From Hormiphora californensis (taxonomy: Eukaryota; Animalia; Ctenophora), in the NCBI GenBank assembly GCA_020137815.1, contig CM035357.1:8184001-8248000 (forward strand): a DNA stretch of 64,000 nt, given 5' to 3'. A program made the translations under genes and the position numbers. Below are positions 4,764 to 52,984 of this stretch, one piece after another; positions within the stretch are counted from its first letter, which is position 1; each line of letters begins with the position of its first letter. The notes beneath the pieces are model-generated. The model had not been told where the DNA came from and searched no databases. It was given only the letters and a program-made list of their open reading frames with translations.

Positions 4764-5274
4764 AGTGGTAGCAGCAGCAGTAAGGAAGAAAGTTCTGAGG
4801 ATGAGAAGCAGTACAGCTGTATCAAGACTAATCCCGGATTTTACCCATCAACTACTGCATTAACAGATGATTCAGCTTCAGTACTTGATCCAGTTAAATC
4901 TGCTCTTACGGCAAAGTCTTCAAAACAGCCAGTACTTGACCAGCCAGTACTATCTACAGAAAATGATGGTGCTGTCAAGACCCAAATGCAACTGCCTGGT
5001 TATAATACGTTTCGTAAAGTAGACACTGCCCAAAAACCTGCAGTGTTTCAACTAGCAAACATTAATATTTGTAAGGCCGGTTGTGAGTCCAGAGACAATA
5101 TCACTGAAAACAGTCCGATAAGAAACACTGATCATCATGATGATCAGTTTCCATCGATGGGGGAAACAGAGATTGTTCGAGCTCCACCATACTCTGAAAC
5201 AATGCTGGATGGAGAAACACATGCAAAGGCAGCTGAAAAAGAAAATACATTTCCTAGCACCACTTCAAATGCTG
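4764..5274 (+). CDS. Coding exon A (511 nt), S/T/E/K-rich low-complexity segment
   Basis: Acceptor ttaattattttag, open frame SGSSSSKEESSEDEKQY...TTSNA, donor G|gtaagt (phase 1). Includes ORF 4986..5294. Confidence 0.75.
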
Positions 5275-6047
5275 GTAAGTGTTCAACTAGTTAGACTTGC
5301 AAATTTTTACAAATGGAAACACATTTATCTGTTCACTTTCCTTCTTCCCGGCTGCTGTGTTTACTTGATGATAGACAGGGGTCCATTATATCGTGTGGAG
5401 CAATAAAAAGTCCCCCCTCCAAGTCTACTATAGTTTCAGGTATCGTGGAGTGCTAAAATTTGACACAGCTACTCTACGAGATAAATAAATGACTTGACCA
5501 AAATTCAGACCTCTAGCTCAAATTCTTTTTTTTTTTTTGATCGAAATGAACATATAATTAGGGAATATTAGCTTTGAACTAGGGAAAAATGTGTAACAAG
5601 CTAATTCCTTGAAGCCTCTCATGGTCAACCGCGAGCCCCTACCAAAGGCTCCAAACAGCACCAGCCGCTCTAACCAACCAACCAACCAAGCTAATTCCTT
5701 CACCAATTGGTCCCTATGGGTCCCTAGAATCACCAAAAAAAAATCACTAAAAATCCGCGATGGCTAAGTTGGGTTTTTGGACCACGCCCTTTTGCCTGTA
5801 TTTTCAGTGATAAGGGTAAAAATATAAATTCTCTTAGAATAGGAGTAGAGAAGAAAACAAGGGCACTAAAGTGTGTAGCGTCCTCGCATTAGTGGGGGTA
5901 GACACCCATGAAAAGTCTCTATCTCATTTGGTTAATTAGATAATTGGATAATTAGATATGTGCATAGCCGTTTTTGGCCATATGGCTATAGCCACTTAGG
6001 AATGGTTTAGAGACTTTTCACTGGTGCCAAATCAGAATTGGATAAAA

Positions 6048-6454
6048 TTGTTGTAGGTAGTAGAGATTAGCTTTCTGAGCATTTTGCGTTTTTGCCGCTC
6101 AAAATCGACCCACCCATCACTGAAATATCTTTGTTATGTTGGGAGAATTCCTGCTGGATCAATATTTATCAAACAGGATAGAAACAATCCTTGTGTTTTA
6201 CTAACACATTCTTTAAATTTTGAATATATATGCTGGCTTGCATTGCCCTGCTTCTGTGCATGGACATGTCAACCTCACTGTTCATATTCAGAATGTGTTA
6301 GTAAAACACCACGATTGTTTCTTTTCTGTTTTATACATACTGATTAAACAGGAGTTCTCCCAACATAACAAAAATATCTCAGTGATGGGTGGGTCGATTT
6401 TGAGCGGCAAAAACGCAAAATGCTCAGAAAGCTAATCTCTACTACCTACAACAA
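6048..6454. mobile_element. Palindromic MITE-like element (duplicated at about 9268-9673)
   Basis: About 75-bp inverted arms gtaggtagtagagattagctttctgagc...cccatcactga / reverse complement. Confidence 0.7.
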
Positions 6455-9400
6455 ACCTGTCTGATTCTGATTCGGTCCACTCTCACTTTAAGCTCTATTT
6501 CGAACCGTTTAGCCGTTATTTGACTTTAAAGGTGCTCCAAAATCGGGCTTTTTACCGTTTTTGCTATTTGAGCACCTTTAAAGTCAATAATGGCTAAACG
6601 GTTGGAGATAGAGCTTAAAAGTCCGACGTCGACCCCCCATAACTTGTCCATTACCAATATATATATATGTATAACTATATCTAATGCAAATTTGCACGGA
6701 AATATGACACCCTATCGTCAATGTGACGACGTGATCCGTCAGTGTGACGACGTGATCCGTCAGTGTGACGACGTGATTCGTAGGTATCACGTATCACACG
6801 TGTTGAGAACTGCTTGCGACTTGAGGGGTCACATCACATGTATAAAAGGGAGAGAAAGAGAGAAAAAGAGAGGAATCACATCACATAGCATATATATAGC
6901 AGACAGGCAGAGAGAAAAACATAGAAACAGACCCCTCGATTTGCGATCGGTACGATCGCCCCAGTTTTGCCAATTGCTAGTAATAGTAACCAATCGCGGA
7001 TAGCTAATCGCGATAGTTGATCGCTACCTACAATTGTAAAAGTCTCCCGAATCCGCGTCTATTAAATTCAGCTAGTATTACAAAATACATGTCATAGTAT
7101 AACAAAATGCATGATACTACTGTGTGATTTTAAATGACTGAGACTGCTCTATCTCAAATTGTGTAAAAACTATGGCATCTTTCGACTTCAAATTTTGGGA
7201 CACGATAAAACATAATTTCTCATTTATTCTCCCAGATTTTCAGAAAGTTTCCGTGTTCCTGAATGAACTTATTGCCATAAAACCTCCTCCAACTTTACAC
7301 AGTCATATCTCTGGAGTCTAATGAGATAGAGAGTTCAGATGTTAGGAGAGACAGATAAGACGATTTTGAATGTTTTGTCTGCTTTACGAGTTGATAACTT
7401 TACCGTCTGTTCACAGGAACTGTTTAAAGTGATGTAACACGCCCTAATTAGGCCAAATTTAGGTCATTTTACCCCTCAAAGATCACATGTCCAGCTGATT
7501 CTAGTTGGCTAATGAGGCCTCTTACACGAATTCGTCACGTGTTACTGCAAGGATACCGCTCTCCTTTTTCACCTTGACCAAGCAGACATGATCATGATGT
7601 CTGGAAGTGGTAGCAAGCTGTAGGATACCAGACATCATGCTGCTCTCTACTTCAATCACTTTCTCGTATAAGGTCACGTGACTGGAATTGGGATCTCGAC
7701 ATTAGACATGATCAAAATGTCTACAAAGCGTTCTCTCTCTACTGTTCTGAAGAAGGAGTGTGAGACATCCCTCGCTCCTCAACGGATACAGCGGGCTGTA
7801 GCTGCAGCCAGCGAGGACAGATCTTGTAACATTGCATCTACGGACTGAATGACAGTCCTGGAGACAAAGAAGAACTACTACCGGAGTTGTGGACAACGCT
7901 GGCAGAGAAGCCCTTGGTAAAGAGTGCTCAGCGGTTGGGGAGATTCATAGCGGGTCAGACTAGACCCATGAAGATATCCCTGGCAAGCAAGGAGATGCAT
8001 CGTGTATTCTTGGTAAGAAGACACGACTTAGAGAGAGTGAAGTGTTTTCCCGAGTTTATATCCTCCCGACCTTACTTCTGAGGAGAGAGCGGCCCGGGCG
8101 GTCCTAGTGAAGAAGTTAAAAGAGGAGAAGGAGCGGAGCCTGGGAAGTCGTTTAGGATCAAAGGAGGCGAGGTGGTGGAGGTCTCCTCGGGGACACATAG
8201 TACTTACTGTGAGTGCTATTCATTTAAGTTTCTTCTTTTTCATTATTTTCATTAAATTGCCTTCTTTGTTTGCTATAGTGTTCCTGTTGTTAACTATTAG
8301 ACCAGCAGGAACATTCCAACGGGTCCATTACTAAAGTGGATTCCAAGCTACTTCAGCTAAACCTTGTCAAAGGTAAAAAAAAAAATGGGGGAAACAGAGA
8401 TTGTTCGAGCTCCACCATACTCTGAAACAATGCTGGATGGAGAAACACATGCAAAGGCAGCTGAAAAGAAAATACATTTCTAGCACCACTTCAAATGCTG
8501 GTAAGTGTTCAACTAGTTAGACTTGCAAATTTTTACAAATGGAAACACATTTATCTGTTCACTTTCCTTCTTCCCGGCTGCTGTGTTTACTTGATGATAG
8601 ACAGGGGTCCATTATATCGTGTGGAGCAATAAAAAGTCCCCCCTCCAAGTCTACTATAGTTTCAGGTATCGTGGAGTGCTAAAATTTGACACAGCTACTC
8701 TACGAGATAAATAAATGACTTGACCAAAATTTCAGACCTCTAGCTCAAAATTCTTTTTTTTTGTTGATCGAAATGAACATATAATTAGGGAATATTAGCT
8801 TTGAACTAGGGAAAAATGTGTAACAAGCTAATTCCTTGAAGCCTCTCATGGTCAACCGCGAGCCCCTACCAAAGGCTCCAAACAGCACCAGCCGCTCTAA
8901 CCAACCAACCAACCAAGCTAATTCCTTCACCAATTGGTCCCTATGGGTCCTAGAATCACCAAAAAAAAATCACTAAAAATCCGCGATGGCTAAGTTGGGT
9001 TTTTGGACCACGCCCTTTTGCCTGTATTTTCAGTGATAAGGGTAAAAATATAAATTCTCTTAGAATAGGAGTAGAGAAGAAAACAAGGGCACTAAAGTGT
9101 GTAGCCTCGCATTAGTGGGGGTAGACACCATGAAAAGTCTCTATCTCATTGGTTAATTAGATAATTGGATAATTAGATATGTGCATAGCCGTTTTTGGCC
9201 ATATGGCTATAGCCACTTAGGAATGGTTTAGAGACTTTTCACTGGTGCCAAATCAGAATTGGATAAAATTGTTGTAGGTAGTAGAGATTAGCTTTCGAGC
9301 ATTTGCGTTTTTGCCGCTCAAAATCGACCCACCCATCACTGAAATATCTTGTTATGTTGGGAGAATTCCTGCTGGATCAATATTTATCAAAAAGGATAGA

Positions 9401-10340
9401 AACAATCCTTGTGTTTTACTAACACATTCTTTAAATTTTGAATATATATGCTGGCTTGCATTGCCCTGCTTCTGTGCATGGACATGTCAACCTCACTGTT
9501 CATATTCAGAATGTGTTAGTAAAACACCACGATTGTTTCTTTTCTGTTTTATACATACTGATTAAACAGGAGTTCTCCCAACATAACAAAAATATCTCAG
9601 TGATGGGTGGGTCGATTTTGAGCGGCAAAAACGCAAAATGCTCAGAAAGCTAATCTCTACTACCTACAACAAACCTGTCTGATTCTGATTCGGTCCACTC
9701 TCACTTTAAGCTCTATTTCGAACCGTTTAGCCGTTATTTGACTTTAAAGGTGCTCAAAATCGGGCTTTTTACCGTTTTTTGCTCATTTTGAGCACCTTTA
9801 AAGTCAAATAATGGCTAAACGGTTGGAGATAGAGCTTAAAAGTCCGACGTCGACCCCCCATAACTTGTCCATTACCAATATATATATATGTATAACTATA
9901 TCTAATGCAAATTTGCACGGAAATATGACACCCTATCGTCAATGTGACGACGTGATCCGTCAGTGTGACGACGTGATCCGTCAGTGTGACGACGTGATTC
10001 GTAGGTATCACGTATCACACGTGTTGAGAACTGCTTGCGACTTGAGGGGTCACATCACATGTATAAAAGGGAGAGAAAGAGAGAAAAAGAGAGGAATCAC
10101 ATCACATAGCATATATATAGCAGACAGGCAGAGAGAAAAACATAGAAACAGACCCCTCGATTTGCGATCGGTACGATCGCCCCAGTTTTGCCAACTGGCT
10201 AGAATAGTAACCAATCGCGGATAGCTATCGCGATTAGTGTCGCACCTACAATGTAAAAGTCTCCCGAATCCGCGTCTTATTAAATTCAGCGTAGTATTAC
10301 CAAAATAATGTCATAGCATAAACAAAATGCATTGATACTA

Positions 10341-11611
10341 CGTGTGCTTTTAAAACTGAGACTGCTCTATCTCAAATTGGTAAAAAACTATGGCATCTTC
10401 GATTCAAATTTTGGGACACGGTAAAAAATAAATTTCTAATTATCTCCAAGCTTTCAGAAAGTTTCCGTGTTCCTGAATGAACTTATTGCCATAAAACCTC
10501 CTCCAACTTTACACAGTCATATCTCTGGAGTCTAATGAGATAGAGAGTTCAGATGTTTAGGAGAGACAGATAAGACGATTTTGAATGTTTTGTCTGCTTT
10601 ACGAGTTGATAACTTTTACCGTCTGTTCACAGGAACTGTTTAAAGTGATGTAACACGCCCTAATTAGGCCAAATTTAGGTCATTTTACCCCTCAAAGATC
10701 ACATGTCCAGCTGATTCTAGTTGGCTAATGAGGCCTCTTACACGAATTCGTCACGTGTTACTGCAAGGATACCGCTCTCCTTTTTCACCTTGACCAAGCA
10801 GACATGATCATGATGTCTGGAAGTGGTAGCAAGCTGTAGGATACCAGACATCTATGCTGCTCTCTACTTCAATCACTTTCTCGTTATAAGGTCACGTGAC
10901 TGGAATTGGGATCTCGACATTAGACATGATCAAAATGTCTACAAAGCGTTCTCTCTCTACTGTTCTGAAGAAGGAGTGTGAGACATCCCTCGCTCCTCAA
11001 CGGATACAGCGGGCTGTAGCTGCAGCCAGCGAGGACAGATCTTGTAACATTGTCATCTACGGACTGACTGACAGTCCTGGAGACAAAGAAGAACTACTAC
11101 CGGAGTTGTGGACAACGCTGGCAGAGAAGCCCTTGGTAAAGAGTGCTCAGCGGTTGGGGAGATTCATAGCGGGTCAGACTAGACCCATGAAGATATCCCT
11201 GGCAAGCAAGGAGATGCAGTCGTGTATTCTTGGTAAGAAGACACGACTTAGAGAGAGTGAAGTGTTTTCCCGAGTTTATATCTCTCCCGACCTTACTTCT
11301 GAGGAGAGAGCGGCCCGGGCGGTCCTAGTGAAGAAGTTAAAAGAGGAGAAGGAGCGGAGCCCTGGGAAGTCGTTTAGGATCAAAGGAGGCGAGGTGGTGG
11401 AGGTCTCCTCGGGGACACAGTAGTACTTACTGTGAGTGCTATTCATTTAAGTTTCTTCTTTTTCATTTATTTCATTAAATTGCCTTCTTTGTTTGCTATA
11501 GTGTTCCTGTTGTTAACTATTAGACCAGCAGGAACATTTCAACGGGTCCATTACTAAAGTGGATTCCAAGCTACTTCAGCTAAACCTTGTCAAAGGTAAA
11601 AAAAAAAAAAA

Positions 11612-11659
<48 letters not shown>

Positions 11660-12272: not shown

Positions 12273-12315
12273 TAGTTTAAAATACACATTTAATGATTTA
12301 GCAAGCTAGAAATAG

Positions 12316-13301: not shown

Positions 13302-13335
13302 TTGCAGTCGGAAATAGATTTAGCAGCCAGAAATA

Positions 13336-14432
13336 CCGCGTGGCCCAAATTAAAGGGAGGGTACGTTGGCCTTCTTTTCACCCAGAAGTTTAATTTCAAT
13401 CACTCTGATATTTTGACACAATGTCTGCATGGTTACTCATTCGAGGAATCCGAAGTTTCAGCCCTCTGGATAAAAGTTCATTTTTTTCGACCGAATGAAC
13501 ACAAATTTGGGACCATATTTCGGTACCAAAGTTTCACAAATTTGTTTGGCTATCGATTTCCTTTCGAATGGGACCAGTTTGAGCTTAATTGGATCACCAC
13601 AATAATCACAGTGATCCGTTTTCTAAGCCTAGGGTAAGTCATGTGATCCCCATCAAATTATGACGTGTTAGCAAGAGAGCTTACATTTTAACGGATGCTG
13701 TATCGGTACACCATCCTCATTAGCAGACGTGATACGTGATACTCGACCGTTACACCTGCTTATTGGCACTTAGTAATGACGCTATCGTCTCATTAGGTGT
13801 CAGATGACCAAACCTAGGGTTAGATAACTAGAAACTGTGTCTCTTGCGGTGGTCCAATTGAGCTCAAATTAGTCGCGTTTGAAAGGAAATCGATACCCGA
13901 AGGCGACTGTGAAATTCCGGTTCCAAAAAGCATTCCTGTTTTCAAGTTCATTCAGAATTCATTCCAGTCGGAAAAATGAATTTTAAGATGGAGAGCTTAA
14001 ATTCCGGCTAACATTAAAATTGGTCAAGTGTAGTGGCCGTAAAGATTTTTAGCGCCTGAATTTACCGATTTCTGGTCACAACTGAGGTCAAAATCGATGT
14101 TTGGTAAAAAATATCATTTTTAAATAACTTATTTCACCCACTAAACTTAATTCAATTTAATAAAAATGCAGATTGCCATTTGTTGATACTTACTCTATTG
14201 TATGGCGGTTTTTAAAATAATAAAATTGAATTTAATCAAGAGAAAACCTCAAAAAACCCGAAAAATTAAAAATTGAGTTCATTAATGAACTTTCAACTTT
14301 TATGATTTGAAACTTCGGATTCCTCGAATGAGTACCCATGCAGACATTGTGTCAAAATATCAGAGTGATTGAAATTAAACTTCTGGGTGAAAAGAAGGCC
14401 AACGTATCCTCCCTTTAATTTGGGCCACACGG
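13336..14432. mobile_element. Non-autonomous Tc1/mariner-type element (1.1 kb, ~120-bp TIRs, TA TSD)
   Basis: ta-CCGCGTGGCCCAAATTAAAGGGAGG...CCTCCCTTTAATTTGGGCCACACGG-ta; near-identical copy at 47920-49025. Confidence 0.9.
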
Positions 14433-14469
14433 TAGCAGCCAGAAATAGACTGTCGAGCAACTGTGTACC

Positions 14470-16240
14470 TGCCAGATTGTCAATAGTAAACTGAAGATTC
14501 ATAATGTCAGACTCACAAGTTATAACGCTCCAAGTTTTAATATCGTCAGTAAAAAGGGCCGTCTTGGTATTCCCTATAGTAATCAAAAATACATCATTGA
14601 TGAACATGATAAAGAGAAGGGGTCCCAAGATGGAGCCTTGAGGGACCCCAGACAGCACATCAATAAGGTCTGACTGGCTGCCACTGATAGCAACTCTCTG
14701 CTTCCTCCCAAAAGATAACAGCGCAAAAAATTAAACATTTTACCGTCAATATTAAACATATATTTCAACTTCTCCAAAAGAATATCATGGTTAACACTAT
14801 CAAAAGCTTAAGAAAAATCATAATATACAATGTCAACTGCTTCTCTGTTATGATTTGAGTGAGTGAGATCATCGAGAAAGGGAATAAGTTGGGTTAAACA
14901 GGACTTTCCGGGAAGGAAGCCGTGCTGTCTAGGATCCAACTTACTGTAACACTTCTCTAAGAGCTGATAATTAACAAGTCTCTCCAAGATCTTCATAGCA
15001 ATACAAATCAGGGAGATAGGTCGGTAGTTACGGACATCCTTCTTAATATCTCCCTTCTTGTGTACTGGTACAACATTTTAGTTGGTAAACTACCAATGCT
15101 GTAGGCGATGTTGTAAAGTAACGATAAAGGATAAGCTAATGCACCTGCACACTTTCTATAGATCATGCTGTGGATGCCATCAGGGCCTACAGGCTTCATG
15201 GTATTGAGTTTCTACAGTACCCCATAAACATCACTCGCACTAAAATTACAATTGTCCATATCGTCTGAGTCAAAGCTAACATTCACAGTGTCATAGCTGC
15301 TAGGTGCCGAGAAGTTGGTAGCAAAGTGGCCATTGAAAAAGTTAGCCTGGTCAATCCTATCAGTCCTAAAGACACTCCCATCATTGGCAACAGGAGGGAT
15401 TCTAGTTGATTTGGATGTGACCTTAACCTGCTTCCAGAACTTCTTAGTAACGGCGTCAGTAGTGTCAAGATCAAGAGAGGAACAAAGATTCTTATTAACA
15501 GTTTTCCTAAATTCTTTTCTAGCAGCTTTATACCTGTCCCAGTCACCACTCAGACCAGAGGTTTTAGCTTTATCACGAAGAGCCTCCTTGCGTTTCCTTG
15601 CATGCTCTCATCGAGAATAACAATGTCTATTTTATGTGTGTAGATATAATAATCTTGACATTCAATAACTGTCAGGACAACAGTGACAGATCTCGATTTC
15701 ACCGCTGTCTCATTCCAGCTATCATTCCTGTGTACGTGGCCGATATGGTCCCGGGTGATATCAGTACCATCTCCAATGATGTTAACAACACTCCTTGAGA
15801 GCAGCTGGAGACGTATCCTTACTGTCGGGTAGTCTGGTGAGGATGATTGTGTTCCTACCGGAGTAGGCCTCGAGTTCAAGCAGTCTGTCATCATTAGCAG
15901 GCTGGGTCACAACAGCAGGAGCAGATTTAGCGTGTTCTTCAAGCTCACAAACACGCACTCCAAGGTCAGTAACAAGCTGCTTCAAGCCACAAATCTCGCC
16001 CTGAAGGCTGGCGTTTGCTGCTGTTCAATCAACTTCTGTTGGCCCTCAAAAAGCAACATGATCACCTCCATCTGGTCAATGTTGTTCTTCGTAATGTAAT
16101 CTCTGGTGGTGCCATCATCAAGAGAAGCGTTCAGTTCCTTACTGCTTTGTTTGCTCAATCTCGTCATGCCCACTCCTCCCGAAGCTAGCCCACAATCAAG
16201 GCAGAAACTATGTGTGTAAAGTTGCTACAAACAGGCAATT
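14470..16240 (-). mobile_element. Degenerate, internally deleted CR1/L2-group LINE (ORF1 plus RT fragments)
   Basis: Frameshifted RT motifs GPDGIH, QHGFLPGKSCLTQL, DIVYYDFS, GVPQGSILGPLLF.MFIND and LFTDD; coiled-coil ORF1-like pieces at 15550-16173. Confidence 0.88.
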
Positions 16241-16669: not shown

Positions 16670-16764
16670 GTGTACTAGTAGCGATACGTCGCCGTACTTC
16701 CCAGCGGATACAAGAGCAAAAGAAATCTAAGACTCCGGCAGTTACTCACGAGATATCCAAACAG
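16670..16764 (+). CDS. Coding exon B (95 nt), GVLVAIRRRTSQRIQEQKKSKTPAVTHEISKQ
   Basis: Acceptor ttgctttttag, donor CAG|gtgatt. Phase 1 in and phase 0 out exactly bridges exons A and C. Unique sequence between repeats. Confidence 0.65.
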
Positions 16765-20736: not shown

Positions 20737-21545
20737 TGGGGTTGCCGTTACATATATTGCAGTGGTGCCACGTTATTGGGGTTGCCGCGTGTGAGACAGT
20801 GGTGCTCCATTTTTGGGGTTGTTGTATAATGCAGTGGTGCCCCTTTTTGAGGTTGCCGCGTGAGACAGTGGTGCCCCGTTTTTAGAGTTGCCGTTTAATG
20901 CAGTGGTGCCCCGTTTTTGGGTTGTCGTATAATGCAGTGGTGCCCCGTTTTGGGGTTGCCGTATAGTGCAGTGGTGCCCCGTTTTTGGGGTTGCCGTATA
21001 GTGCAGTGGCGCCCCGTTTTTAGGTTGCCGTGGTGCCCCGTTTTTGGGGTTGCCGTATAGGGCAGTGGCGCCCCGTTTTTGGGTTGCCGTATAATGCAGT
21101 GGCACCCCATTTTTGGGTTGCCGTATAATGCAGTGGTGCCCCGTTTTTGGGGTTGCCGCATGAGACAGTGGTGCCCCGTTTTTGGGGTTGCCGTATAGTG
21201 CAGTGCAGTGGTGCCCCGTTTTTGGGTTGCCGTATAATGCAGTGGTGCCCCGTTTTTGGGGTTGCCGCGTGAGGCAGTGGTGCCCCGTTTTTGGGGTTGC
21301 CGTATAGTGCAGCAGTAGCGCCCCGTTTTTGGGTTGCCGTATAATGCAGTGCAGTGGTGCCCCGTTTTTGGGGTTGCCGTATAGTGCAGTGGTACCCCGT
21401 TTTTGGGTTGTCGTATAATGCAGTGGTGCCCCGTTTTTGGGTTGCCGTGTAATGCAGTGGTGCCCCGTTTTTGGGGTTGCGTATAATGCAGTGGTTCCCC
21501 GTTTTTGGGGTTGCCGTATAATGCAGTGCCGCGTAAGGCAGTGCC
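20737..21545 (+). repeat. About 35-bp minisatellite, roughly 20 or more copies
   Basis: Unit cagtggtgccccgtttttggggttgccgtataatg with variants. Confidence 0.93.
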
Positions 21546-26100: not shown

Positions 26101-26275
26101 AGTGTTTCCTTCGGAGAGCTTGTTATGTTGCCGTTTTTGTCGTTTACACAGTTCAGTTTACAACCTTCACTGGTTTTAATGACATGGCTTATTTTTTGTG
26201 CATCAGAGAAGGCGTCGAGTTCTTCCGTCCATGCTTTCCAGCATTTTCTCTTGGAATATACTCGTATCTTACTGT
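23170..26275 (-). mobile_element. 5'-truncated LINE of the I/R1/LOA group: RT, RNase H and CCHC knuckle
   Basis: ORF 23601..25715 contains QYGF, LDIEGAFD, GCPQGGILSP and FADD; RNase H YTDGSK / CDSQ / WIPAHQGHHGNELAD; CNLC..ETVKHVLTEC. It continues upstream in the same frame across a single stop at 25821-25823. Confidence 0.95.
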
Positions 26276-26420
26276 GGCTGTGGGACCACTCCCTAGTCTT
26301 TCCCCGAGAGATACCCTCCCCCTGCCCCCCTAGTCCCCCGTGGGACTACCATACCCCCTGAGATAGACAATGGGCTGCCACAAGGAGTCAGTAATCCAGT
26401 CACCTGACTCCCCCCACAGC

Positions 26421-26867: not shown

Positions 26868-29800
26868 GAATCAAAACGTTGGGAGCATACCTGGGCACAT
26901 GCCACCAAGAATCCTTCTAGAGTGCCTCTTCTACAGCTCTCTAAAAATGAATCTTCACTGGAAGATTGGGAGGAAGTACATCCAATTACAGCAGATACCT
27001 ATACTTTTCCTCAATCAACTGAAGAGGCCGCCCCCCAATTTATAAGACGAACCAAAGCTATGTTATCTCACTCAGCTCCAAGCAACAAGTCGCATATTAC
27101 ACTACCTGTCACAATGACATTCGAACAAGGCTCTCAAAACCATGCTAATTTCGTGCCACATATAAACGAGGAGTTATCAAGTTGTTTTAGCCAAATGTCC
27201 ATCGACTGGGAACACGCTGCACAATTATTAAACTCCGATATTTCTCCACTGAAAAAGGCTAATGGCGACCCACTGAACTTAAAACAATCTAACCAGAAAA
27301 AAGAAACAGAAAGTCCACCTGTTGAGCCTACCATACCAGTCAAAAGTACCCCACTCAAAAAAGCTACATTTGTGTACATTTCCAATACAGGCTCCCCTCT
27401 AGTTCCATCTATTGCGACCCCGATTAAGTCTGCTCCAGTAGATCCGGCAATAGCGGCCATATTTGAGAGCAGTACCCTGGTTTCTCCTTGCAAAAAGCAA
27501 GTATGCCGGCCCTCACAACGGATACCTCGGAGAGTATCACTGGTCAAACTGGCGGATAACTGCTCATTAAACTTTATAAAGAGTCCTTCTCCCACTAGTG
27601 CACGTGAGATGGGTAGAAAATTGTTTTCAGGAAAGCATGACTGGAGCAATGTTGAAACAGTTCGTGATGCGAGTACAGATACAACGCCTAAGAAAAACAA
27701 GACTGCTGTAAAAGCACAGTCAATAACCTCTTGGAAAAATTGCCTAAAAAATCTCAAGGATTATCCATTTTTTAGCATCAATCAACAGCAACTCAAAATT
27801 GCTGAAACGAGTAATGTTATTTCAGATAGGTTCACGACAAATGAAACCTCTAGAGTGTCTCCTAAATCTGTTTTCTTGAAAGAAATCGTCCAAGATTCAA
27901 CCGATGAGACAACGGGTGATGCGGAAAAAATACCATCTGTCTCGCAATGGCCAATTGATAACCCCAGTGATAGCCATATTTTCAAGACTCCATCCGAATG
28001 GGCGGTCTCAGAATCAGCTGTAAAACCATTTTTGTCGCCAGCTAAACAACCATTGGATCTAAGTTGTCCTTATGATCCTAGCGAAACTGGATGTTATTCT
28101 ACCGATATTGAACATTCAACCGAGGTTATCCCAGCTCCAGTTCATGATGGCAGTGCAAAGATTGTTGATGAAAAACAGGAAGATATCAGTAAAAAGTCTT
28201 CTATAACAGTTAACCTTACCAAACTTCTAAGTTGTGAGGAGATTTCAAAGGAGATATCATCTAGCCCATATCTACTGGAAAAACTCAATGACCCATCTAA
28301 ACAATGTCCTAGAGCTTCGATTTCTGACACCTACCAATCATCTATCTCCGAGTCTGCTTCAAAAATATCGTCCAATAACTCCCCGAAAAATACACTCACT
28401 ATGTTAGCAGATTCTGTTATGGGAAATATACAGAGTTTTGTTGACACTACCGGAGAGGAAACACTGGATTTTGAAGCAGGCGATGACATTACATCCTACA
28501 AACATAAGAACGTAATGATCGGATATGGAAAGGAATTTTTGGATGAAGGGGAAGTTTTTTCTTCCGATGAAGAAGGTGAACTGAAAATACTCAACGGAGA
28601 AAAAGAGGAAGAGGTAACAGTCAGCAGGGAAAAGAGAGATAAAAGTATGTCAAACGAATGGAATAAAATATTAAAGCAAGAGAGAATTTTTCAGACGGAT
28701 CTGAAATTGAGTAATACGCTCGTAGGAACTAAAAATCCAGAATACACAGATAAAGAGTTGTCAGAAACAAAGAAAATTGCAAAGTGTTTGAAATCCCATA
28801 CTCACGTCGTGACTACTACACAATCAAAAATCAGATCTGTATTACAATTACCTTGTGGTAATTCGGAACTAACTCCTTTGCATTCAATAGAAGATGTATG
28901 TTATGTATCGGAAGTAGATCCATTGCCTATGACGCAGATGACCAATCTACCATGTTTATTGGAAGTACCTCACTTGGCTATAAATATGCGTCTAGGCCAT
29001 CCATCAGAACTACCCCCACAAAAATGTTCTGTGACACAAGCTCTCATATGTGAAGATGCGCTTTCGAACCCCGATTCCTTGACTTCTTCAGTGAATGACT
29101 TCCCTGAAATGCGGGCAAGTAAGCTTAATGAAAGCGATAAAGTTTGTAGCTCGTCAAATTTGTTGCTATGCAAAGATTCTCTGGTTTGCTCATCTTCTTC
29201 TGCCGATAGAACTGTTCCGCTGAATGAACCTGCATCTAATGTAACTTTAGTGGGTAAGGTGACAACGGATGACTGGATTGCTGGGTCACAAATAGTGCCG
29301 GGTGAGCTCGCCAGTTTTTGGAAACAACAAACTAATAATATTTCATCTGAAAATGCCATCGATCCCGTTTCTGGGATGGAATTTCATCCAAAAAATTTAG
29401 CTGCAGGTCAGCAGCCTAGACGAAGACTCTCTCTACATGACTATGTAAATCGAAAAAAAGCTCTACAGTCTGGCACAAAACAACTAAATGAGAATGTAGC
29501 CAGTGCAAGTGCTGCGGCGGTGGTTTGTGAGTCAGAATTTGTGAGCATAAAGAAGGTTGGTAAGAAAACAGATATGACAGCAACTTTAAACTTCCACCAT
29601 TTAATCCCAATTCATGTTCCGCCCATTGAGTTCACTTATCTAAGACGGGTCCCAGTAATACAGGATATGCTGATTAATGAGATTGTAAATGGAGTAAATT
29701 TTGGTGGTTTTGTTTCGCAAAATTTGCTCCCCAGCCGTGCAGGTGGAAGGTGGACGACGACAAATCAGCTCAATTGTGATAAAAGCCGGGTTAATGACAA

Positions 29801-31587
29801 GAAGACTTGGGGGTCAGTAAGAAGGGGCAAAATCGATGCAAGACGTGAAGAAGAGGATACAGTTATAGAAAACGTGGTACCATTTGACGATTATCAAGGA
29901 AAAGATCAGCTTGAATCAAATTTATCAACTTTGGTCCCTTCCTGTGTTTTAGAATCCCATCCCCCTCAACAGCGGAAAAAATTGAATGGCCAACCAGAAA
30001 TTCTGGACGAGGAATCGAGCGATTTTTTTCATATGGTTTGTATACCGAAAGTGAAACGTGTAACAGATACTTACATGTCTGATCAAACGATTTTAGATTC
30101 GTACGGCACGGGAAGAGATGCCTTTGAAGTAGGAAAACTGATTCGACGGAGTATTAGATCTGCAGATGGAAATGATATTCGGGAGTTTCCAAGCGACTTT
30201 CCCAGATTTGTCCCTCTTTCCTTAAAACATTCAAACGTCGGGCAAGCATCATCAGGAAACGAAGAAATGTCTACATTAAAAAAAATGCTATCTTCCCCAA
30301 CATCTAAGTCTAAGTTACATATACAACACTCATCCACGGTAACTTTACCATTATCCGTCGGCAAATATGCGATCAAAGATATGTCATCACCTTGTTCGGG
30401 GGTTTCGATATCACCCGGAAGTATAGATGTTACTTGTGATGAGATTTCTGGTAAAGAAGTTCAGGTACCTGTTGTTACAAGCCCGCAGTCTAGGACCCAA
30501 GACCAGACACAACCTTTAGACAACATAAACTCTGTAAACACAACCGTTATGGAACAGGAAAAAGATTCTAGCACGCCACAACCGTTGCCTCAAGAAGTTA
30601 CCTCAAGTGAATCTATTCGTCTATTTCTTTTAGACAATTTGGACGCCACCCCAAAGGAATCTATCTTTACTCGACGACGTAAGCAGCAAATGGAATCTTC
30701 TGTCATTGGGAAGCGGGAGAGAAGTATGACATCTGTTACTCCGCTAGCTGAAGTTGTTGCAACAGATTTAAAAAATCTTGATCAAGTAGGGAAGGAACAA
30801 AACACAGAATCGAATGGATATTCACATATAAAGGGGAAAAGCCAAGAACTCGGGAAAGGTCTTTTAAAAATAGATCAAGGAAAACAGGGACAGATGATAC
30901 AAAAGACCAGAAAGCGCCGTAAAACTGACTCTCCAGATAAAGGAGTAACTGACCTTCGTTCCCTGTTGAAGAATCGCAATAAAAGTCCCAGTAACTGTAC
31001 ATCAACAGGAAAGCCACATTGTAAAAGATCCAAAAACTCTGGAAAGGGTGATTTAATATCCATTTTTTCTGACTTTCGTGGCCAACTATTTGATCCAGTT
31101 GAAGTACTGAGGATAAATCGAGGGGTAAAGGATCTTACATACGATACATCAAAATCTTGTGAAACCTTAAATGAGTGGCTAGATAAATGGAGGGAGATAG
31201 CTGAACCACGAATACGTGAGCTTGCGGATATGAGGCATTTGTTGTTTGAAAAAAATAATTCGTTACCATTGACAGACAAATCAATGAAAAGGCTTACAAA
31301 ACAAAGATCAGGTTTTGGCTGGAAAGAGAGCATACCTGACTCCACTTATCAAAAACGTATGGGATTGATAGGTGTAGCTAATTGTATGAAAACCGTCGAG
31401 TCCTTTAACATCTCTACTACTGATAGATCAGTTAATCCCCTCTTAAAAAGGCGTGAAATATACAACTACAAGAAAAAGGGGAAGGTGCTAGCACCTAAAG
31501 TGTGGGAAGAGAGTCTTGATATTGCTAATGATGCAGACGGCGTAAAACAGAAACGGAAAGGAAAGAATGTCCTTGATTTTATGATAG
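26868..31587 (+). CDS. LSM11: Giant coding exon C (4,720 nt): disordered region ending in an LSm11 N-terminal-like segment
   Basis: Acceptor ccttttttttcag in frame with the 1560-aa ORF; donor ATAG|gtgagt. Contains SDFRGQLFDPVEVL...YDTSKSCETLNEW (31068-31178), NLS-like KTRKRRK and terminal KNVLDFMI. Confidence 0.88.
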
Positions 31588-35560: not shown

Positions 35561-38092
35561 AACTACCACGTTCGCAAAAGACCGTAAATAATACACGCTC
35601 CATACACTGACACTTTCTTCACCAAACATGACTAATAGCGTCAGTGGAATGGCTCTTCACCGGGCATGGCATGGCGCCAGTGGGGCCGGCATTGGCTGAG
35701 CCTGGGACTTTTGCATATGCTAGCAGTTTGGTATTCGTTCGCTGTGTGAAAGGCATGAAGTGATTGTGTGGTTTGACTTCGTTGGCGTGGGGTTTCGTTG
35801 GGGTGTCAGATTTTGATGCAGGGTCTTGACTTGGTCCGAGTTCCGTGGTGCAGCAGGATGTCTGATGTTGTTGGCTTTACGCAGGAATACCGCAGTTTCC
35901 CAGGGGTGATCCTTGAAGAGACATCTCATCCGGACTGCATGAAGCTAAGGCTTATCTGTAGATAGATGTTGATTCCTAATGACGTCGTACCCTGGGCAAT
36001 GCAATAGTACATGTTCCTCATCCTCCGTGATTGTCTCGTGTGAGGGGAGTTGAGAGATGAGCAGGAAAGTAAGGGTATCCTCCGTGGTGCAGATGGGGCA
36101 GGCTCTTTTCTTTATCAGTGTGTCCTCTGTCCTTGTGCTTTCCCTGTATTTTTGTTGTCTCCCTACTTCAATGTTGAATCGGTGAGCACTGCACCTTAGT
36201 CTTGCTATCCATTTAGATAGGTCACGTTCGAGGTCAAGATATTCTTCTGGGTAAAATGATGTTTTCACCGTATTGTACAATTCCATTTCCCTGTTTGTAG
36301 TGCGATCCCTTTTCCAACTGGTGGTGAATGTATCTTCCTTGTCGAGACGGCTCATGGCGAGTACTTGAGTAACCCGGTCCAGCTCCAGCAATTCTTGCTC
36401 CTTCAGAGCATAAACCACTAACGGGGTGGAAGTATCATGGCTGTCACAGTTTTCCATGTCTTTGATACGGTTGAAGGCGCCCACAATCGCCCTATACCGC
36501 AACGCTGGGGGCCCGAGTGTGTATTCCCAACGCCATCTTGCAGAATGATAGATGCAATCGTTCCAAGGGCGATTTGGCTATGATCTTCAAATTCAGTGAG
36601 TCTTTGCTTATAATTGACTTCCAGGATGTGTGCGGGAGCCATACTTGAGAGCAGTAGCTAGCCACGGGAAGGACTAGTGAGTCGAAAAGTTTCAGCGCTG
36701 TGCGGGGACTTATCGCCGAGAAATCAATTTGTTTCTTCAAGGCGAATACAGCTCTGAGGGCTTTTTGCTTGAGCTTAGCTTCATTCAGCTTAAATGATCC
36801 ATTGAGAGTGAAGGTTACACCCAGGTAGCAATATGTTTTTGCGGAGGGTATTCTCTGTCCCTTGAATGTAAATCTTTCACTTTCTTTTAGTTTGACTGCC
36901 GATTTGTTGAATACCATGACTTCTGTTTTCTTGAGGTTTACGGAGAGCCCCCATTCCTCACAGTATTCCTCTAGTACATCGATGAGTCGTTGGAGGCTGG
37001 CAGGGTTTAAAGCCATCAGAACCAAGTCGTCGGCCCACAGGAGGTGAGAAATGTATTCCCCCGCCAAGGATGGTGATGAAGAAGCCTCTTCCCTGTTGAG
37101 TCTTACCGAGAGCTCGTGTACGTAGATCTTAAAGAGCTCAGGACTTAGAGGGTGACCCTGTTCTGTACCAGTGTACCGATGTTAACCTCTATAGTCTCTG
37201 TGAGCTTACCAAGGAGTTTTATCTTGGCTGCAGATCCAGTATACATATCCTTGAGTACACCAAAGAACCGGCCACGCACGCCGTATTGATAGAGTTTATA
37301 CAGTAGGGCCTCCCTGCACACGGTGTCAAAGGCTTTGGAGTAGTCTACAAACACCGTGTACAGGCGAGATTTTTGCTGGATGTATTTATCTATGGTTGTC
37401 TTCAGGGTTAGGACATGGTCAGCGGTTTGCTCTCCTTTACAGAACCCCAGTTGATTCGGAAGATCTGGTACTTCAATAGAGCGGAAATCCAGAAGCCTAT
37501 CCAATAGAATCCCAGAGAATAGCTTTCCAAGGTTGCTTGCTACTGCCACTGCTCTGTAAGTTGTTGGGATCATACCTACTGCCTTTCTTATGTAGCGGGG
37601 TAACGAGTGATTCTTTCCAGGGATAACACTGGTTTCGAAGACATTGGTTAAACAGGTTAGTTGTCGCCTCCATGACTTCGGGACTGCTTGCTTTCAGAAA
37701 CTCATTGGAAATCTGGTCCTCAGCCACTGCTTTTCCGTCCCTGAGTCTCCTTGTTACAGCTGCTACTTCTTCTACTGACACATCCCTATTGAGAGCTTCA
37801 TCTAGATCCTCTGATATGGGTTCCTCGCATGGCGTATCCCAGCACAAAGCTTGTTCCTTTCCTGACAGAGCGGCTGGTGGGGGCTGCTTGGCGTAGAGTT
37901 TCTTGAAGAACTTGCAGAAGTTTTTCATGTCGAACGCGTCCAGCTTGCTATCCAAGGGTGCAAAGCTCTTCAACTTCTTGAGATTTTTCCAGTCGATGTT
38001 ACCATCATCGATATCTTGGGAGAGTTCTCTGATGTAGCGTCTCTTTGTGTTTCTTACCAACCTTCTGTGATCCTTTTTCGCTGTGAATAGTT

Positions 38093-40084
38093 TAGTAGAG
38101 TCGATAACTACAGGGTGTCCCACTGTCTTTGCGTGACCTGTGATTTTGGGTGGTGAGTGGGTTCCATTCAAATGCTCATAACTCATCGAAAAATAGGTCA
38201 AAACGGCTCAACCAAAAACAGTGTTGTAGAGAATTGTCAGGCGAACGTTTGGGTACAAGATTGATGTTCCAAGTCTTACCAACCGTCAGATATATCGTCT
38301 TAAAGTCAAAAATACGTATTCATGAAATCCGACCGGGGTTCACGTTTTGAAAAATTCACAAATGCAAAGTTGCTCGGATCACATTGCATCCCTCATAAGA
38401 GTTGTAGGAAATTGTCTGGCGGTCATTTTGGTACCCGCGTTTTTGTCCTAGCTCAATGTTTAGAGTGTCTTATGACTGTCAGAACTGGAATTTTCACAAA
38501 AGTGGTCTCAGGTATCGCATTACATTTTGCCCTGTTATGAAGATCATTGCTGCTTGAATAACATCTTAGTGCATGATAGGGTTGAGATAGACCACTTGCG
38601 TATCCTACACATTAACAGGGGCCTTGCCAAATCGTCATAATAACCCTGTCAAGTGTCTAGATGAAATTGAGACGATATGTCCTGATTAGCATGGGATTAC
38701 ACACGACACCGAGCCACCTAATTAGGCGCTGTGAGCCGATACCAACTAAGACTCAGCGTAGAAAATCTTAATGTTCCTACAGTCATAACGCAACTAAAAC
38801 GTAGAGCTATGGAAAAAATCATGGTGTCAAAATGAACCTTAGACGATTCCAATGAAGCTCTTATAAATTTCAAACCATTTTACCCATTTGTTGATGACAC
38901 GTGATCCCCTCAAAAATGTTGGTTGAATTTCGTCTTTAGACAGTCATAAGACACTTTAAACATTGAGCTAGGACAAAAACCCGGGTACCAAAATGACCGC
39001 CAGACAATTTCCTACAACTCTTATGAGGGATGCAATGTGATCCGAGCAACTTTGCATTTGTGAATTTTTCAAAACGTGAACCCCGGTCGGATTTCATGAA
39101 CACGTATTTTTGACTTTAAGACGATATATCTGACGGTTGGTAAGACTTGGAACATCAATCTTGTACCCAAATGTTCGCCTGACAATTCTCTACAACACTG
39201 TTTTTGGTTGAGCCGTTTTGACCTATTTTTCGATGAGTTATGAGCATTTGAATGGAACCCACTCACCACCCAAAATCACAGGTCACGCAAAGACAGTGGG
39301 ACACCCTGTACATCGACCTCTCCCAATTGTTCCAGTTTTTGTCACATCAGTTTGGAGCCTCGACACGACCTCTAAACAGGTGTTACTTTTTCACAAGCTG
39401 TTTTCATCTTGGTGTAATCAGCAGTTGAAATGTTGCTGATCATAACAAAAATCTGACTAAATTTTTTCAACTTGGGGTACAACCATGGGTGTCAAAAGTT
39501 AGCTCTAGGTCCCCTGAGTAACCATCCGGAGACTCCAAGAGATATTTCAAGCCGTTCTCCTGTAATCATTAATCCCGGTAGAGCACATATTTGAGTATGG
39601 GCGTACGTGCAATTGCCTACAACCTCAACTTTAATGTATAACGTTAATGTGCGTCTCTCTCTTTTCTCCCCCTTGAGAAAGAGTTATCTCGCGCGGCGCA
39701 ACCGCACGTGCGGTTTTTCCAGAGAGAGTGAGAGACATACAATAACATGTAAACAGCCTGCCAGCGCTCACGTACGTCCGCATTGTATTTTTTTCTCCAC
39801 CGGGATTAATGATTACGGGAGAACGGCTTGAAATATCTCTTAGAGTCTCCGGATGGTTACTCAGGGGACCTAGAGCTAACTTTTGACACCCATGGTTTTA
39901 CCCCAAGTTGAAAAAATTTAGTCAGGTTTTTGTTATGATCAGCAACATTTCAACTGCTGATTACACCAAGATGAAAACAGTTTGTGAAAAAGTAACACCT
40001 GTTTAGAGGTCGTGTCGAGGCTCCAAACAGATGTGACAAAACTGGAACAATTGGGAGAGGTCGATGTAGTTATCGACTCTACTA
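38093..40084. mobile_element. Non-autonomous foldback element with TAG...CTA ends and a 3-bp TSD (Academ-like)
   Basis: gtt-TAGTAGAGTCGATAACTA...TAGTTATCGACTCTACTA-gtt; ~290-bp arms. Removing it restores the LINE frame (TGQLFTAKK). Confidence 0.75.
38111..39308. mobile_element. Tc1/mariner-type foldback element (1.2 kb, ~365-bp TIRs, TA TSD)
   Basis: ta-CAGGGTGTCCCACTG...CAGTGGGACACCCTG-ta, inserted in the left TIR of 38093-40084. Confidence 0.9.
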
Positions 40085-46041: not shown

Positions 46042-46181
46042 CAAAGAAAGATGGTCCATTTGGATTGCTTCAACGAGCAATGACTGAAAACCTTCGTGTT
46101 ACTGTTCTGACTAGGACCTACAAAGGAGTGAGGGGCCAGTGCTCTGGATATCTTGTGGCCTTTGATAAATACATGAACCTT
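46042..46181 (+). CDS. LSM11: Coding exon D: Sm motif 1 of LSm11
   Basis: Acceptor atatcccccag, donor CTT|gtaagt. Encodes AKKDGPFGLLQRAMTENLRVTVLTRTYKGVRGQCSGYLVAFDKYMNL; the RT.KG.RG.C.G.LVAFDK..N pattern is LSm11-type. Confidence 0.9.
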
Positions 46182-47917: not shown

Positions 47918-47919
47918 TA

Positions 47920-49025
47920 CCGCCTGGCCCAAATTAAAGGGAGGGTACGTTGGTCTTCTTTTCACCCAGAAGTTTAATTTCAATCACTCTGATATTTTGA
48001 CACAATGTCTGCATGGTTACTCATTCGAGGAATCCGAAGTTTCAGCCCTCTGGATAAAAGTTCATTTTTTCCGACCGAATGAACATTGAATGAACAAAAA
48101 TATGGGACCATATTTCGGTACCAAAGTTTCACAAATTTGTTTGGCTATTGATTTCCTTTCGAATGGGACTAGTTTGAGCTTAATTGGATCACCACAAGAA
48201 TCACAGTGATCCGTTTTCTAAGCCTAGGGTAAGTCATGTGATCCCCATCAAATTATGACGTGTTAGCAAGAGAGCTTACATTTTCACGGATGCTGTATCG
48301 GTACACCATCCTCATTAGCAGACGTGATACGTGATACTCGTCCGTAACACCTGCTTATTGGCACTTAGTAATGACGCTATCGTCTCATTAATTGTCAGAT
48401 GACCAAACCTAGGGTTAGATAACTAGACACTGTGTCTCTTGTGGTGGTCCAATTGAGCTCAAATTAGTCGCGTTGAAAGGAAATCGATACCCGAAGGCGA
48501 CTGTGAAAATCCGGTTCCAAAAAGCATTCCTGTTTTCAAGTTCATTCAGGATTCATTCCAGTCGGAAAAATGAATTTTAAGATAGAGAGCTTAATTTCCG
48601 GCTAACACCAAAATTGATCAAGTGTAGTGGCCGTACAGATTTTTAGCGCCTGAATTTACCGATTTCTGGTCAAAACAGGTCAAAATCGATGTTTGGTAAA
48701 AAATATCATCTTTAAATAATTTATTTCACCCACTAAACTTGATTCAATTTTAATATAAATTTAGATTGCCATTTGTTGATACTTGATCTATTGTATGGCG
48801 GTTTTAAAAATAATAAAATCGAATTTAATCAAGAGAAAACCTCAAAAAACCCGAAAAACGAAAAATTGAGTTCATTAATGAACTTTCAACTTTTATGATT
48901 TGAAACTTCGGATTCCTCGAATGAGTACCCATGCAGACATTGTGTCAAAATATCAGAGTGATTGAAATTAAACTTCTGGGTGAAAAGAAGGCCAACGTAC
49001 CCTCCCTTTAATTTGGGCCACGCGG
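47920..49025. mobile_element. Non-autonomous Tc1/mariner-type element, copy of 13336-14432
   Basis: Same TIRs and interior, TA TSD. Confidence 0.9.
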
Positions 49026-49599
49026 TATATAAGGTTTGGCTGAGAGCCCCTTTCTCTAGAGTGTCGGGTTTTGAAATCTTTTTTTGAAATAGAACTGGCT
49101 AGACGTATTTTTTTACGCTGATTCCGAATCTGTCATCAGATTTGATCTACGATAATGTCATCCCTGATCGCAGTCCTTATAAAAGAATTTCTATTGCGCT
49201 GCGTTTTAGTGCTGGCACTATATCACGTGATCTCTCGCTAATTAGCTGCACTCTCGATCTTACACACGAGTACACAACTCGAGATGTGTGAGAACCCCGG
49301 TCCCATTACAATTACGGTTGAATTGATCGGGACGAAGCTGAATCAATAGCTTGCTGCTTGGGATATATTTGAGGTAAAATATGTGAATGGGGTATTACAA
49401 ATCTATTGGGTAAGTAGGATGTAACCAATGATTGGGTCCCGGGGTTGTGTATCAAACACGTGTCTGAATGTGGTACTGATAGCTATTAGCTATAATTGAG
49501 TTCGAGACACTGAAACAGAGTGAGTGAAAGGGAGTGTGTGTGTGTGTGTGTGACACGGTTTTGACACGGTTTGACACGGTTTTAAAATAATTCTGCACG

Positions 49600-51695: not shown

Positions 51696-52658
51696 CGGTG
51701 GCAGATTCCGGCCAAGAGTTTTTTCAATCAAGTGAAATATTTTTGTTTGAAGTTTTATAAAAATTTTATTTCAAAATAACAATAAACATGTTGTTAAAAT
51801 TATTGGCCGGAATCTGCCACGTGAGTGCTAGATCTCGGCTAAAATTCTAAAAAACCTTGGCCAGAATCTGCCAACCACGTGGCAGATTCCGGCCAACAAA
51901 CTGAAACTTACTTATATCAAAGCGAAAACCGCTGTACCCGACTAATTTTGATACGCTGAATCACGTAAGCAACTTTTGCAATCCCTCAGAGGTCGGGAAA
52001 GTGTCCTAATTGAGCATAATAGGGTCTAATTGGCCCCACTTACAAATGTTCCCCTAGAAACGATAGACGCTTATGTGAAGGCACTTTTCCGACTAATTTT
52101 GATACGCTGAATCACGTAAGCAACATTTCCAAGCCCTCCGAGGTCGGGAATTCGGCCTAATTAAGTATAATCAGGTCTAATTGGCCTTAATTGCTCAATA
52201 ACGGCAAATTCCCGACCTCGGAGGGCTTGGAAAAGTTGCTTACGTGATTCAGCGTATCAAAATTAGTCAGAAAAGTTCCTTCACATTAGCGTCTATCGTT
52301 TCTAGGTGAACATTTGTAAGTGGGGTCAATTAGACCATATTATGCTCAATTAGGACACTTTCCCGACCTCTGAGGGATTGGAAAAGTTGCTTACGTGATT
52401 CAGCGTATCAAAATTAGTCGGGTACAGCGGTTTTCGCTTTGATATAAGTAAGTTTCAGTTTGTTGGCCGGAATCTGCCATGTGGTTGGCAGATTCTGGCC
52501 AAGGTTTTTTTAGAATTTTGGCCGAGATCTGCCATTCGCGTGGCAGATTCCGGCCAATAATTTTAACGACATTTTTATTTTGAAATGAAATTTTTATAAA
52601 ACTTCAAACAAAAATATTTCACTTGATTGAAAAAACTCTTGGCCGAAATCTGCCACCG
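51696..52658. mobile_element. About 960-bp palindromic MITE with TA flanks; related fragments at about 3400-3740
   Basis: ta-CGGTGGCAGATT...AATCTGCCACCG-ta; arms about 455 bp. Confidence 0.88.
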
Positions 52659-52761
52659 TAATGTAGTACATACCAAAAACCAATTAAATTGGTTTAGATA
52701 ATCTGGGGCCCAATGTTCACCACGATTGATTAGATTGATATTTTACCCTTTTTACTTTTAG

Positions 52762-52984
52762 GCGTTGACTGACGTGACTGAACACTTCCGATCTTTATAC
52801 CATTCCGAGAGAACCTGTGGGAAAGTGGAGATTGAAATCAACCTTATAAATCAATCAGCTTCATCGCAACGGTCAAAAATAAACGAAGGAGTACACTGTT
52901 ATGATAATGTTAAAATCAAACCTGTTTCACCTTCTTTCTCCCCGGGGTCTAGTATAGGATCTCCTGGCACAACTCCTTCACCAG
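52762..52984 (+). CDS. LSM11: Coding exon E: end of Sm1 (ALTDVTE) and the Ser/Pro-rich Sm1-Sm2 loop
   Basis: Acceptor tttacttttag, phase 0; ALTDVTEHF continues Sm1 from exon D. Donor CCAG|gtcagt. Confidence 0.85.

What the first reader, a model, noticed from the sequence alone, without database searches (positions are those of the whole stretch)
4764..52984. Giant LSm11: more than 1,600 extra residues fused in frame ahead of the U7 snRNP-specific Sm-like protein
Seen: five exons splice in frame (~1,896 codons). The 4.7-kb exon ends KNVLDFMI and joins at phase 1 to an Sm1 exon of LSm11 type, then to ALTDV. Known (from recall): animal LSm11 is only a few hundred residues and starts shortly before a DxxSxxFDP(L)xxL FLASH-binding segment. 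Here the equivalent SDFRGQLFDPVEVL...Y....CETLNEW lies about 1,610 residues into the visible chain, with no stop codon or intron between it and the upstream 1,400 codons. Inference: this lineage has a fused or greatly extended LSm11, implying a rewired histone pre-mRNA 3'-processing complex.
Basis: partly seen in the sequence, partly recalled or inferred. Interest (0 to 1): 0.9.

Follow-up and report, generated by a model that had tools for sequence, protein, structure and literature searches.

The report
Giant LSm11 protein of comb jellies
In comb jellies, the gene for LSm11, a normally small subunit of the machine that trims histone messenger RNAs, carries one huge conserved exon that likely makes the protein five to seven times longer than ours, and the added floppy tail is predicted to act as a built-in docking scaffold.

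Summary
Five GT-AG exons splice into 1,896 open codons, and exon D is the LSm11 Sm1 motif (best PDB hit human LSm11, E 9e-10). The 4.7-kb exon is 90% identical to a Pleurobrachia bachei model. It is also open in six further lineages at 24-31% identity to the window, with 15 collinear blocks. An independent Bolinopsis RefSeq model (XP_063686235.1, 2,523 aa, 'uncharacterized') joins the same exon to a full LSm11 Sm fold and adds a PHD finger. Human LSm11 has 154 residues before the Sm fold; here at least 1,779. The extension is predicted disordered and carries an ARS2-binding-type motif in 10 of 10 sequences plus excess CDK sites. These are features of FLASH and NPAT, so it is most likely a built-in scaffold for U7 snRNP. 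Not shown: spliced RNA; membership of exons A/B (no homology); statistical homology of the FDP motif to human LSm11; a literal FLASH fusion (no LDLY motif, no Myb domain). Sm2 is not in the window.

The parts
4764..5274 (+). Exon A, Ser/Glu-rich start, low complexity; probably near the N-terminus; membership likely but not shown
   Evidence: top candidate exon outside C; no homology to relatives
16670..16764 (+). Exon B, 95 nt, restores frame between A and C; weakest exon
26868..31587 (+). Exon C, 4,720-nt giant exon: disordered extension plus LSm11 N-terminal region; ends at a phase-1 donor
27012..28127 (+). Six conserved blocks, including predicted short helices, a KLFSG segment (possible cyclin docking) and SP/TP sites
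28425..28583 (+). LDFE motif followed by two ARS2-binding-type motifs [ED][ED]GE[ILV] (28542-28583)
   Evidence: consensus from PMC9402713
29403..30095 (+). Three conserved blocks (SLxDY helix; IPI..PP..IQxML block; IPKVKR block), partners unknown
30639..30962 (+). Conserved predicted charged helix and a basic RKRRK stretch (likely nuclear localisation signal)
31068..31256 (+). LFD[PA] motif and following helix: positional equivalents of the LSm11 FLASH-binding and CPSF73-contacting segments (inferred)
   Evidence: human segments from PMC5636114 and PMC12774660; not recovered by PDB sequence search
31473..31586 (+). End of exon C, VLDxM segment; the Bolinopsis equivalent aligns to human LSm11 residues 142-148
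46042..46181 (+). Exon D, LSm11 Sm1 motif
52762..52984 (+). Exon E, end of Sm1 and start of the LSm11 internal loop; donor position plausible, not proven

Best explanation
This is the LSm11 gene of a Pleurobrachia-like comb jelly, whose giant conserved exon is predicted to add about 1,400-2,100 mostly disordered residues ahead of the usual LSm11 N-terminal region, and that tail likely works as a built-in docking scaffold for the U7 snRNP. Shown: open frame, LSm11 identity of the Sm exons, conservation and block-wise selection across seven lineages, an ARS2-binding-type motif in all ten sequences, excess CDK consensus sites. Predicted: disorder with short helices. Inferred mechanism: the Sm fold enters the U7 ring as usual. 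The tail binds ARS2/cap-binding complex on nascent histone transcripts and other nuclear partners through short motifs, is regulated by cyclin-CDK phosphorylation, and so helps concentrate U7 at histone genes. In bilaterians the separate large proteins FLASH and NPAT do these jobs.
For: Splicing in frame. Exon D = LSm11. The RefSeq Bolinopsis model joins the homologous giant region to Sm1, loop and Sm2 (human LSm11 E 4.5e-17). P0008 reads through a short intron into Sm1, while its near-identical cluster mate P0023 diverges 8 residues after the donor, as an intron would. An HMM of six non-Pleurobrachia sequences scores exon C 487.6 bits in six collinear stretches; best of 31 shuffled/reversed controls -3.9. 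In the extension, window vs P0003 is identical at 271 of 298 block positions against 765 of 1,026 elsewhere (p 1.7e-10; blocks defined from other lineages). 21 indels against P0003 keep both frames open. [ED][ED]GE[ILV] in 10 of 10 (0.01-0.04 expected per shuffled sequence); full CDK sites 7-13 against 2.2-5.6 shuffled. FLASH binds ARS2 with the same motif class (PMC5923425, PMC9402713). No methionine shared by the relatives lies within 250 residues upstream of the LFD motif, and P0006 has none there.
Against: No transcript evidence was obtained. No partner binding was shown. [quoted passage not shown] The motif counts are on related sequences, so they show conservation, not ten independent events. 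The LSm11 N-terminal motifs did not hit human LSm11 in six PDB searches. Both AlphaFold models are low confidence (mean pLDDT 45 and 41, alignments of 8-9 rows), so a folded domain could have been missed. The Bolinopsis model is a prediction whose RNA support I could not see.
Confidence: 0.6

Rival explanations
1. The extension is a FLASH-derived (or NPAT-like) gene segment fused in front of LSm11 in the ctenophore ancestor, so a two-protein platform became one chain.
For: FLASH-like size and composition. ARS2 motif with trailing SD, as in FLASH 931-DELEEGEIRSDSE-943. Blocks are collinear over about 1,300 residues, which fits capture of a ready-made protein. FLASH is the natural LSm11 partner (PMC5636114).
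Against: No LD[LIV]Y motif in 0 of 8 sequences tested, including both full Bolinopsis models. No Myb/SANT, LisH or NPAT Pfam hit. No FLASH chain among the 33 PDB hits of P0025 at E <= 0.1. No non-ctenophore relative of the 1,195 residues searched among 1.84 billion proteins. I could not obtain FLASH sequences for a direct comparison.
Confidence: 0.15
2. The giant protein is real, but the tail serves a job outside histone mRNA processing (general transcription or RNA sorting, chromatin reading through the PHD finger, or a cleaved product), and LSm11 is only its carrier.
For: The ARS2 motif is shared with PAXT/NEXT-type factors. The Bolinopsis PHD finger is closest to CXXC1 (E 1.7e-7). Most blocks have no known partner.
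Against: The tail has stayed in one exon with the LSm11 N-terminal region in all seven lineages. Ctenophores keep histone stem-loops and downstream elements (bioRxiv 10.64898/2026.10.14.759114), so U7 processing likely operates.
Confidence: 0.17
3. One locus, two products: a long Sm-less protein that ends in the intron after exon C, and a normal-sized LSm11 from an internal start.
For: An A[AT]TAAA signal lies at 31975, 388 nt into the intron. The P. bachei model P0002 stops right after exon C. No junction reads were seen.
Against: All genomic ORFs end just after the same VLDxM segment, which aligns to human LSm11 right before Sm1. No conserved internal methionine. The Bolinopsis model is continuous. 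P0002 and P0003 endings are simple read-through of the donor site.
Confidence: 0.08

Closest known systems
Human LSm11 (360 aa; PDB 6V4X, 8G1U, 9NH5)
   Same: Sm1 motif, long internal loop, Sm2 at the C-terminus (Bolinopsis model), VLxxM segment before Sm1.
   Different: N-terminal region is 154 aa in human (PMC13552480) against at least 1,779 here and 2,307 in Bolinopsis. The position of human Gly211 is Ser here and Asn in Bolinopsis, by ungapped count from the alignment.
Bolinopsis microptera LOC134819996 (XP_063686234.1/XP_063686235.1, 'uncharacterized')
   Same: Orthologue: same blocks in the same order, same join to Sm1.
   Different: 29% identity over co-aligned columns; has a PHD finger (316-359) and an FKIPK motif, neither found in the window; one ARS2-type motif instead of two.
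FLASH/CASP8AP2
   Same: Large protein of the same pathway with a central ARS2-binding EEGEI motif (PMC5923425).
   Different: FLASH has an LDLY motif with an N-terminal coiled coil and a C-terminal SANT/Myb domain; none was detected here. It is a separate protein in bilaterians.
NPAT/Mxc
   Same: Large, mostly unstructured CDK substrate that organises histone locus bodies (PMC10730174); the extension has the same general make-up.
   Different: No LisH or NPAT C-terminal Pfam match; no sequence homology shown.

Membership tests
LSm11 | Sm1 motif closer to LSm11 than to other Sm/Lsm proteins | tested here: met
   E 9.4e-10 against 0.0022 for SmD2
LSm11 | Long loop splitting Sm1 from a C-terminal Sm2 | tested here: met
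   Complete in the Bolinopsis orthologue; the window shows the loop start only, Sm2 not found in the window
LSm11 | N-terminal FLASH-binding segment (human 23-130 construct) | tested here: inconclusive
   LF[DNE][PA] motif in 10 of 10, 170-200 aa before Sm1 in the two spliced chains; no hit to human LSm11
LSm11 | CPSF73-contacting helix (human R109-L116) | tested here: inconclusive
   Predicted helix with invariant W, L, R after the LFD motif; likeness to the residues listed in PMC12774660 is by eye only
LSm11 | Assembly with LSm10 on U7 snRNA | not testable with these tools
   No genome held; needs biochemistry
FLASH/CASP8AP2 | LDLY motif and N-terminal coiled coil | tested here: not met
   0 of 8 sequences have LD[LIV]Y; no FLASH PDB hit. 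The window's true N-terminus is not visible; the Bolinopsis models are full-length predictions
FLASH/CASP8AP2 | C-terminal SANT/Myb domain | tested here: not met
FLASH/CASP8AP2 | Central ARS2-binding motif | tested here: met
   10 of 10 by consensus; the motif is not specific to FLASH
NPAT/Mxc | N-terminal LisH domain and conserved C-terminal FLASH-binding tail | tested here: not met
   No Pfam match; the C-terminus is Sm2

The most novel reading that the evidence does not exclude
In the animal lineage sister to all others, LSm11 has absorbed the scaffold roles of FLASH/NPAT: one 2,000-2,500-residue chain links the cap-binding ARS2 complex, CDK control and (in Bolinopsis) a histone-mark-reading PHD finger directly to the U7 Sm ring, possibly with the separate scaffold reduced or lost. 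This would be a second, fused architecture of the histone locus body.
Probability: 0.25. Interest if true: 0.9.

Novelty: new variant of a known kind. Interest (0 to 1): 0.74.

Why it matters
LSm11 is already the largest Sm/Lsm protein at 360 residues, and how the U7 core reaches histone locus bodies is stated as unknown (PMC13552480, section 12). A conserved 1,400-2,100-residue tail with 12 selected blocks on U7 itself is a natural experiment: it gives a short list of candidate contacts that U7 needs, testable by peptide screens. It also shows that a core RNA-processing machine is built differently in comb jellies, and it names an 'uncharacterized' RefSeq gene. The fragmentary calls in the collections (P0002 and the single-exon ORFs) carry no Pfam label, which would explain why it was overlooked.

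Tried and rejected
RNA: no RNA holder listed. Contigs of X1 covered only short pieces of exon C and of flanking introns, with no joint; nothing lay on exon D; uninformative. Complex prediction of the conserved helix (two copies) with the LFD segment, from P0004: no verdict, score 0.01, alignment not used, controls not folded. ESM Atlas: best scores 0.85 and 0.84 to BRCA1 disordered fragments, below the useful range. Metagenome scans: no relatives among 239 and 343 pattern matches. Homologue search with exon D alone: no hit among 2 candidates, so I have no length survey of LSm11 in other phyla; the comparison rests on human LSm11. PDB searches with exon C profiles or the FDP region: no LSm11 or FLASH hit. 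P0009 (ankyrin protein, E 1.3e-4, 1 of 7 hits) was dropped as spurious; P0007 is a fragment from P0016's cluster. Fold search was skipped because both models were low confidence. No PHD or Sm2 exon in six frames of the window. Rfam: 0 hits. Earlier findings: none. P0006 carries a precomputed PF28412 label that the Pfam copy here did not return; unresolved. A recalled match of the exon D boundaries to human LSM11 exon 2 could not be verified and is not used as evidence.
Full report
1. The observation. The five exons lie at the stated coordinates with AG/GT boundaries and give 1,896 codons without a stop; the other frames have 121 and 172 stops. Introns are 11.4, 10.1, 14.5 and 6.6 kb and contain repeats. 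Exon C is 4,720 nt, open for 1,573 codons (chance about 1e-39). The FDP motif is at residue 1,610 and the Sm1 start near 1,780. Exon D matches human LSm11 (E 9.4e-10) far better than SmD2 (E 0.0022). No Sm2 or PHD exon was found in the window. Exons A and B have no detectable homologues. A is well supported by codon usage and splice signals, B weakly. The claim does not depend on them, since exon C alone puts 1,407 residues before the motif.

2. What it is. The nearest named relative is a Pleurobrachia bachei model, 90% identical, so the window is from a Pleurobrachia-like ctenophore. An exhaustive phmmer with the last 1,195 residues of exon C gave 7 hits among 1.84 billion proteins: 6 homologues and one ankyrin protein that I dropped. 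A further search gave 8 hits, including Bolinopsis microptera XP_063686235.1. The two named homologues are ctenophores; the unnamed ENA ORFs are assumed to be ctenophores from similarity and the tree. Ten sequences form seven lineages at 23-57% identity between lineages. The ENA proteins look like single ORFs of 1,615-2,340 codons that end just after the same VLDxM segment, so the giant exon and the intron behind it are shared. P0008 continues through 33 intron-derived codons into a Sm1 start, while its cluster mate P0023 diverges just after the donor. The Bolinopsis model (2,523 aa; second isoform 2,536) joins the region to Sm1, a long loop and Sm2, matching human LSm11 142-359 at E 4.5e-17, and has a PHD finger at 316-359. 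Human LSm11 has 360 residues, 154 of them before the Sm fold (PMC13552480).

3. The extension is under selection as protein. Fifteen collinear blocks are conserved, 12 of them upstream of the FDP motif. A profile from six non-Pleurobrachia sequences finds exon C at 487.6 bits in six ordered stretches; the best of 31 controls scores -3.9. Substitutions between the window and P0003 avoid blocks that were defined without them (271 of 298 identical against 765 of 1,026; p 1.7e-10). Twenty-one indels leave both frames open. Methionines shared by all 8 sequences tested are at exon C positions 65, 110, 248 and 1,572; none lies in the 250 residues before the LFD motif. This argues against a conserved short LSm11 from an internal start, though only transcripts can exclude it.

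4. Anatomy and likely mechanism. AlphaFold on two parts of exon C (360 and 731 of 1,573 residues, alignments of 8-9 rows) predicts disorder with short helices on the blocks (mean pLDDT 45 and 41). Pfam finds no domain above cut-off in the giant exon or its homologues. The ARS2-binding consensus [ED][ED]GE[ILV] (PMC9402713) is present in 10 of 10, twice in the Pleurobrachia clade, followed by an acidic Ser-rich stretch as in the FLASH FARB peptide (PMC5923425). Full CDK sites number 7-13 against 2.2-5.6 in shuffles. A [RK]xLF pattern (cyclin-docking label recalled; a weak motif, 0.3-0.6 expected by chance) lies at the aligned site in 9 of 10. SLx[DE]Y and LD[FY][ED] motifs are in 10 of 10, with unknown partners. 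In bilaterians FLASH supplies the ARS2 link, and NPAT/Mxc is the unstructured CDK substrate that builds histone locus bodies (PMC10730174); how U7 gets there is unknown (PMC13552480). I therefore infer a built-in scaffold that ties the U7 ring to ARS2/cap-binding complex and other nuclear partners under cell-cycle control. I put the reality of the giant LSm11 at about 0.92 and this mechanism at about 0.6.

5. Results against. No junction read was obtained. The supposed FLASH-binding and CPSF73-binding segments did not retrieve human LSm11 in six searches; their assignment rests on position, on conservation among the homologues and on recall. A literal FLASH fusion fails two defining tests: no LDLY-type motif (0 of 8) and no Myb domain. 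[quoted passage not shown] The PHD finger is seen only in the two Bolinopsis isoforms. I could not survey LSm11 lengths in sponges, placozoans or cnidarians (one search failed), so restriction to ctenophores rests on the lack of outside hits.

6. Novelty. Searches: 'lsm11'+'mnemiopsis' gave 0 papers. 'casp8ap2'+'ctenophore' gave 1. None of the 40 listed of 414 papers for lsm11 with ctenophore names contained 'lsm11'. Searches listed no report of a long LSm11. The one relevant preprint (10.64898/2026.10.14.759114; passages and section 7 read) reports histone stem-loops in ctenophores and says nothing on LSm11 length in what I read; its figures and supplements were not visible and could list the protein. 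Papers seen as passages: PMC9402713, PMC5923425, PMC12774660, PMC5636114, PMC10730174; PMC13552480 as passages plus section 12. The library lacks most subscription journals. The sequence sits in RefSeq unnamed.

7. Verdict. A real, conserved and apparently undescribed architecture of a known protein: new variant of a known kind, interest 0.74. The boldest reading, that LSm11 has taken over FLASH/NPAT scaffold roles, has probability about 0.25 and would deserve 0.9.

Noticed in passing
P0025 316-359 (P0026 from 329); not in window: PHD finger (Pfam E 3.4e-6, above cut-off; best PDB hit CXXC1) in the Bolinopsis LSm11 model. Absent from the window and from the P0006/P0008 ORFs, which run from a Ser/Asp-rich start to the LSm11 part. 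Either lineage-specific or a gene-model artefact.
   Followed up: partly
window 5156-8384 and 8384-11607: Tandem duplication of 3.2 kb at 97.9% identity that repeats the 3' end and donor site of exon A with small deletions; recent duplication or haplotype mis-assembly.
   Followed up: partly
window 23604-26345, minus strand: Non-LTR retroelement with RT and RNase H (739-codon open stretch, Pfam RVT_1 E 1e-27) about 0.5 kb upstream of exon C; further RT-like fragments at 36495-38207 and 14296-14730, judged by eye.
   Followed up: partly
window 56347-62274 and 20765-21544: Tandem arrays with units of about 138, 470 and 34 bp.
   Followed up: no
window 13334-14434 and 47918-49027: Dispersed repeat of about 1.1 kb at 96-98% identity in two introns.
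   Followed up: no
window 52804-52806: The position matching human LSm11 Gly211 (G211S is linked to Aicardi-Goutieres syndrome, PMC13552480) is Ser here and Asn in Bolinopsis, by ungapped count.
   Followed up: no
P0004, P0024, P0025, P0005, P0016, P0006, P0008: An [FY][KR]IPK motif is present in 7 of 10 sequences and missing from the three Pleurobrachia-clade ones, including the window.
   Followed up: no
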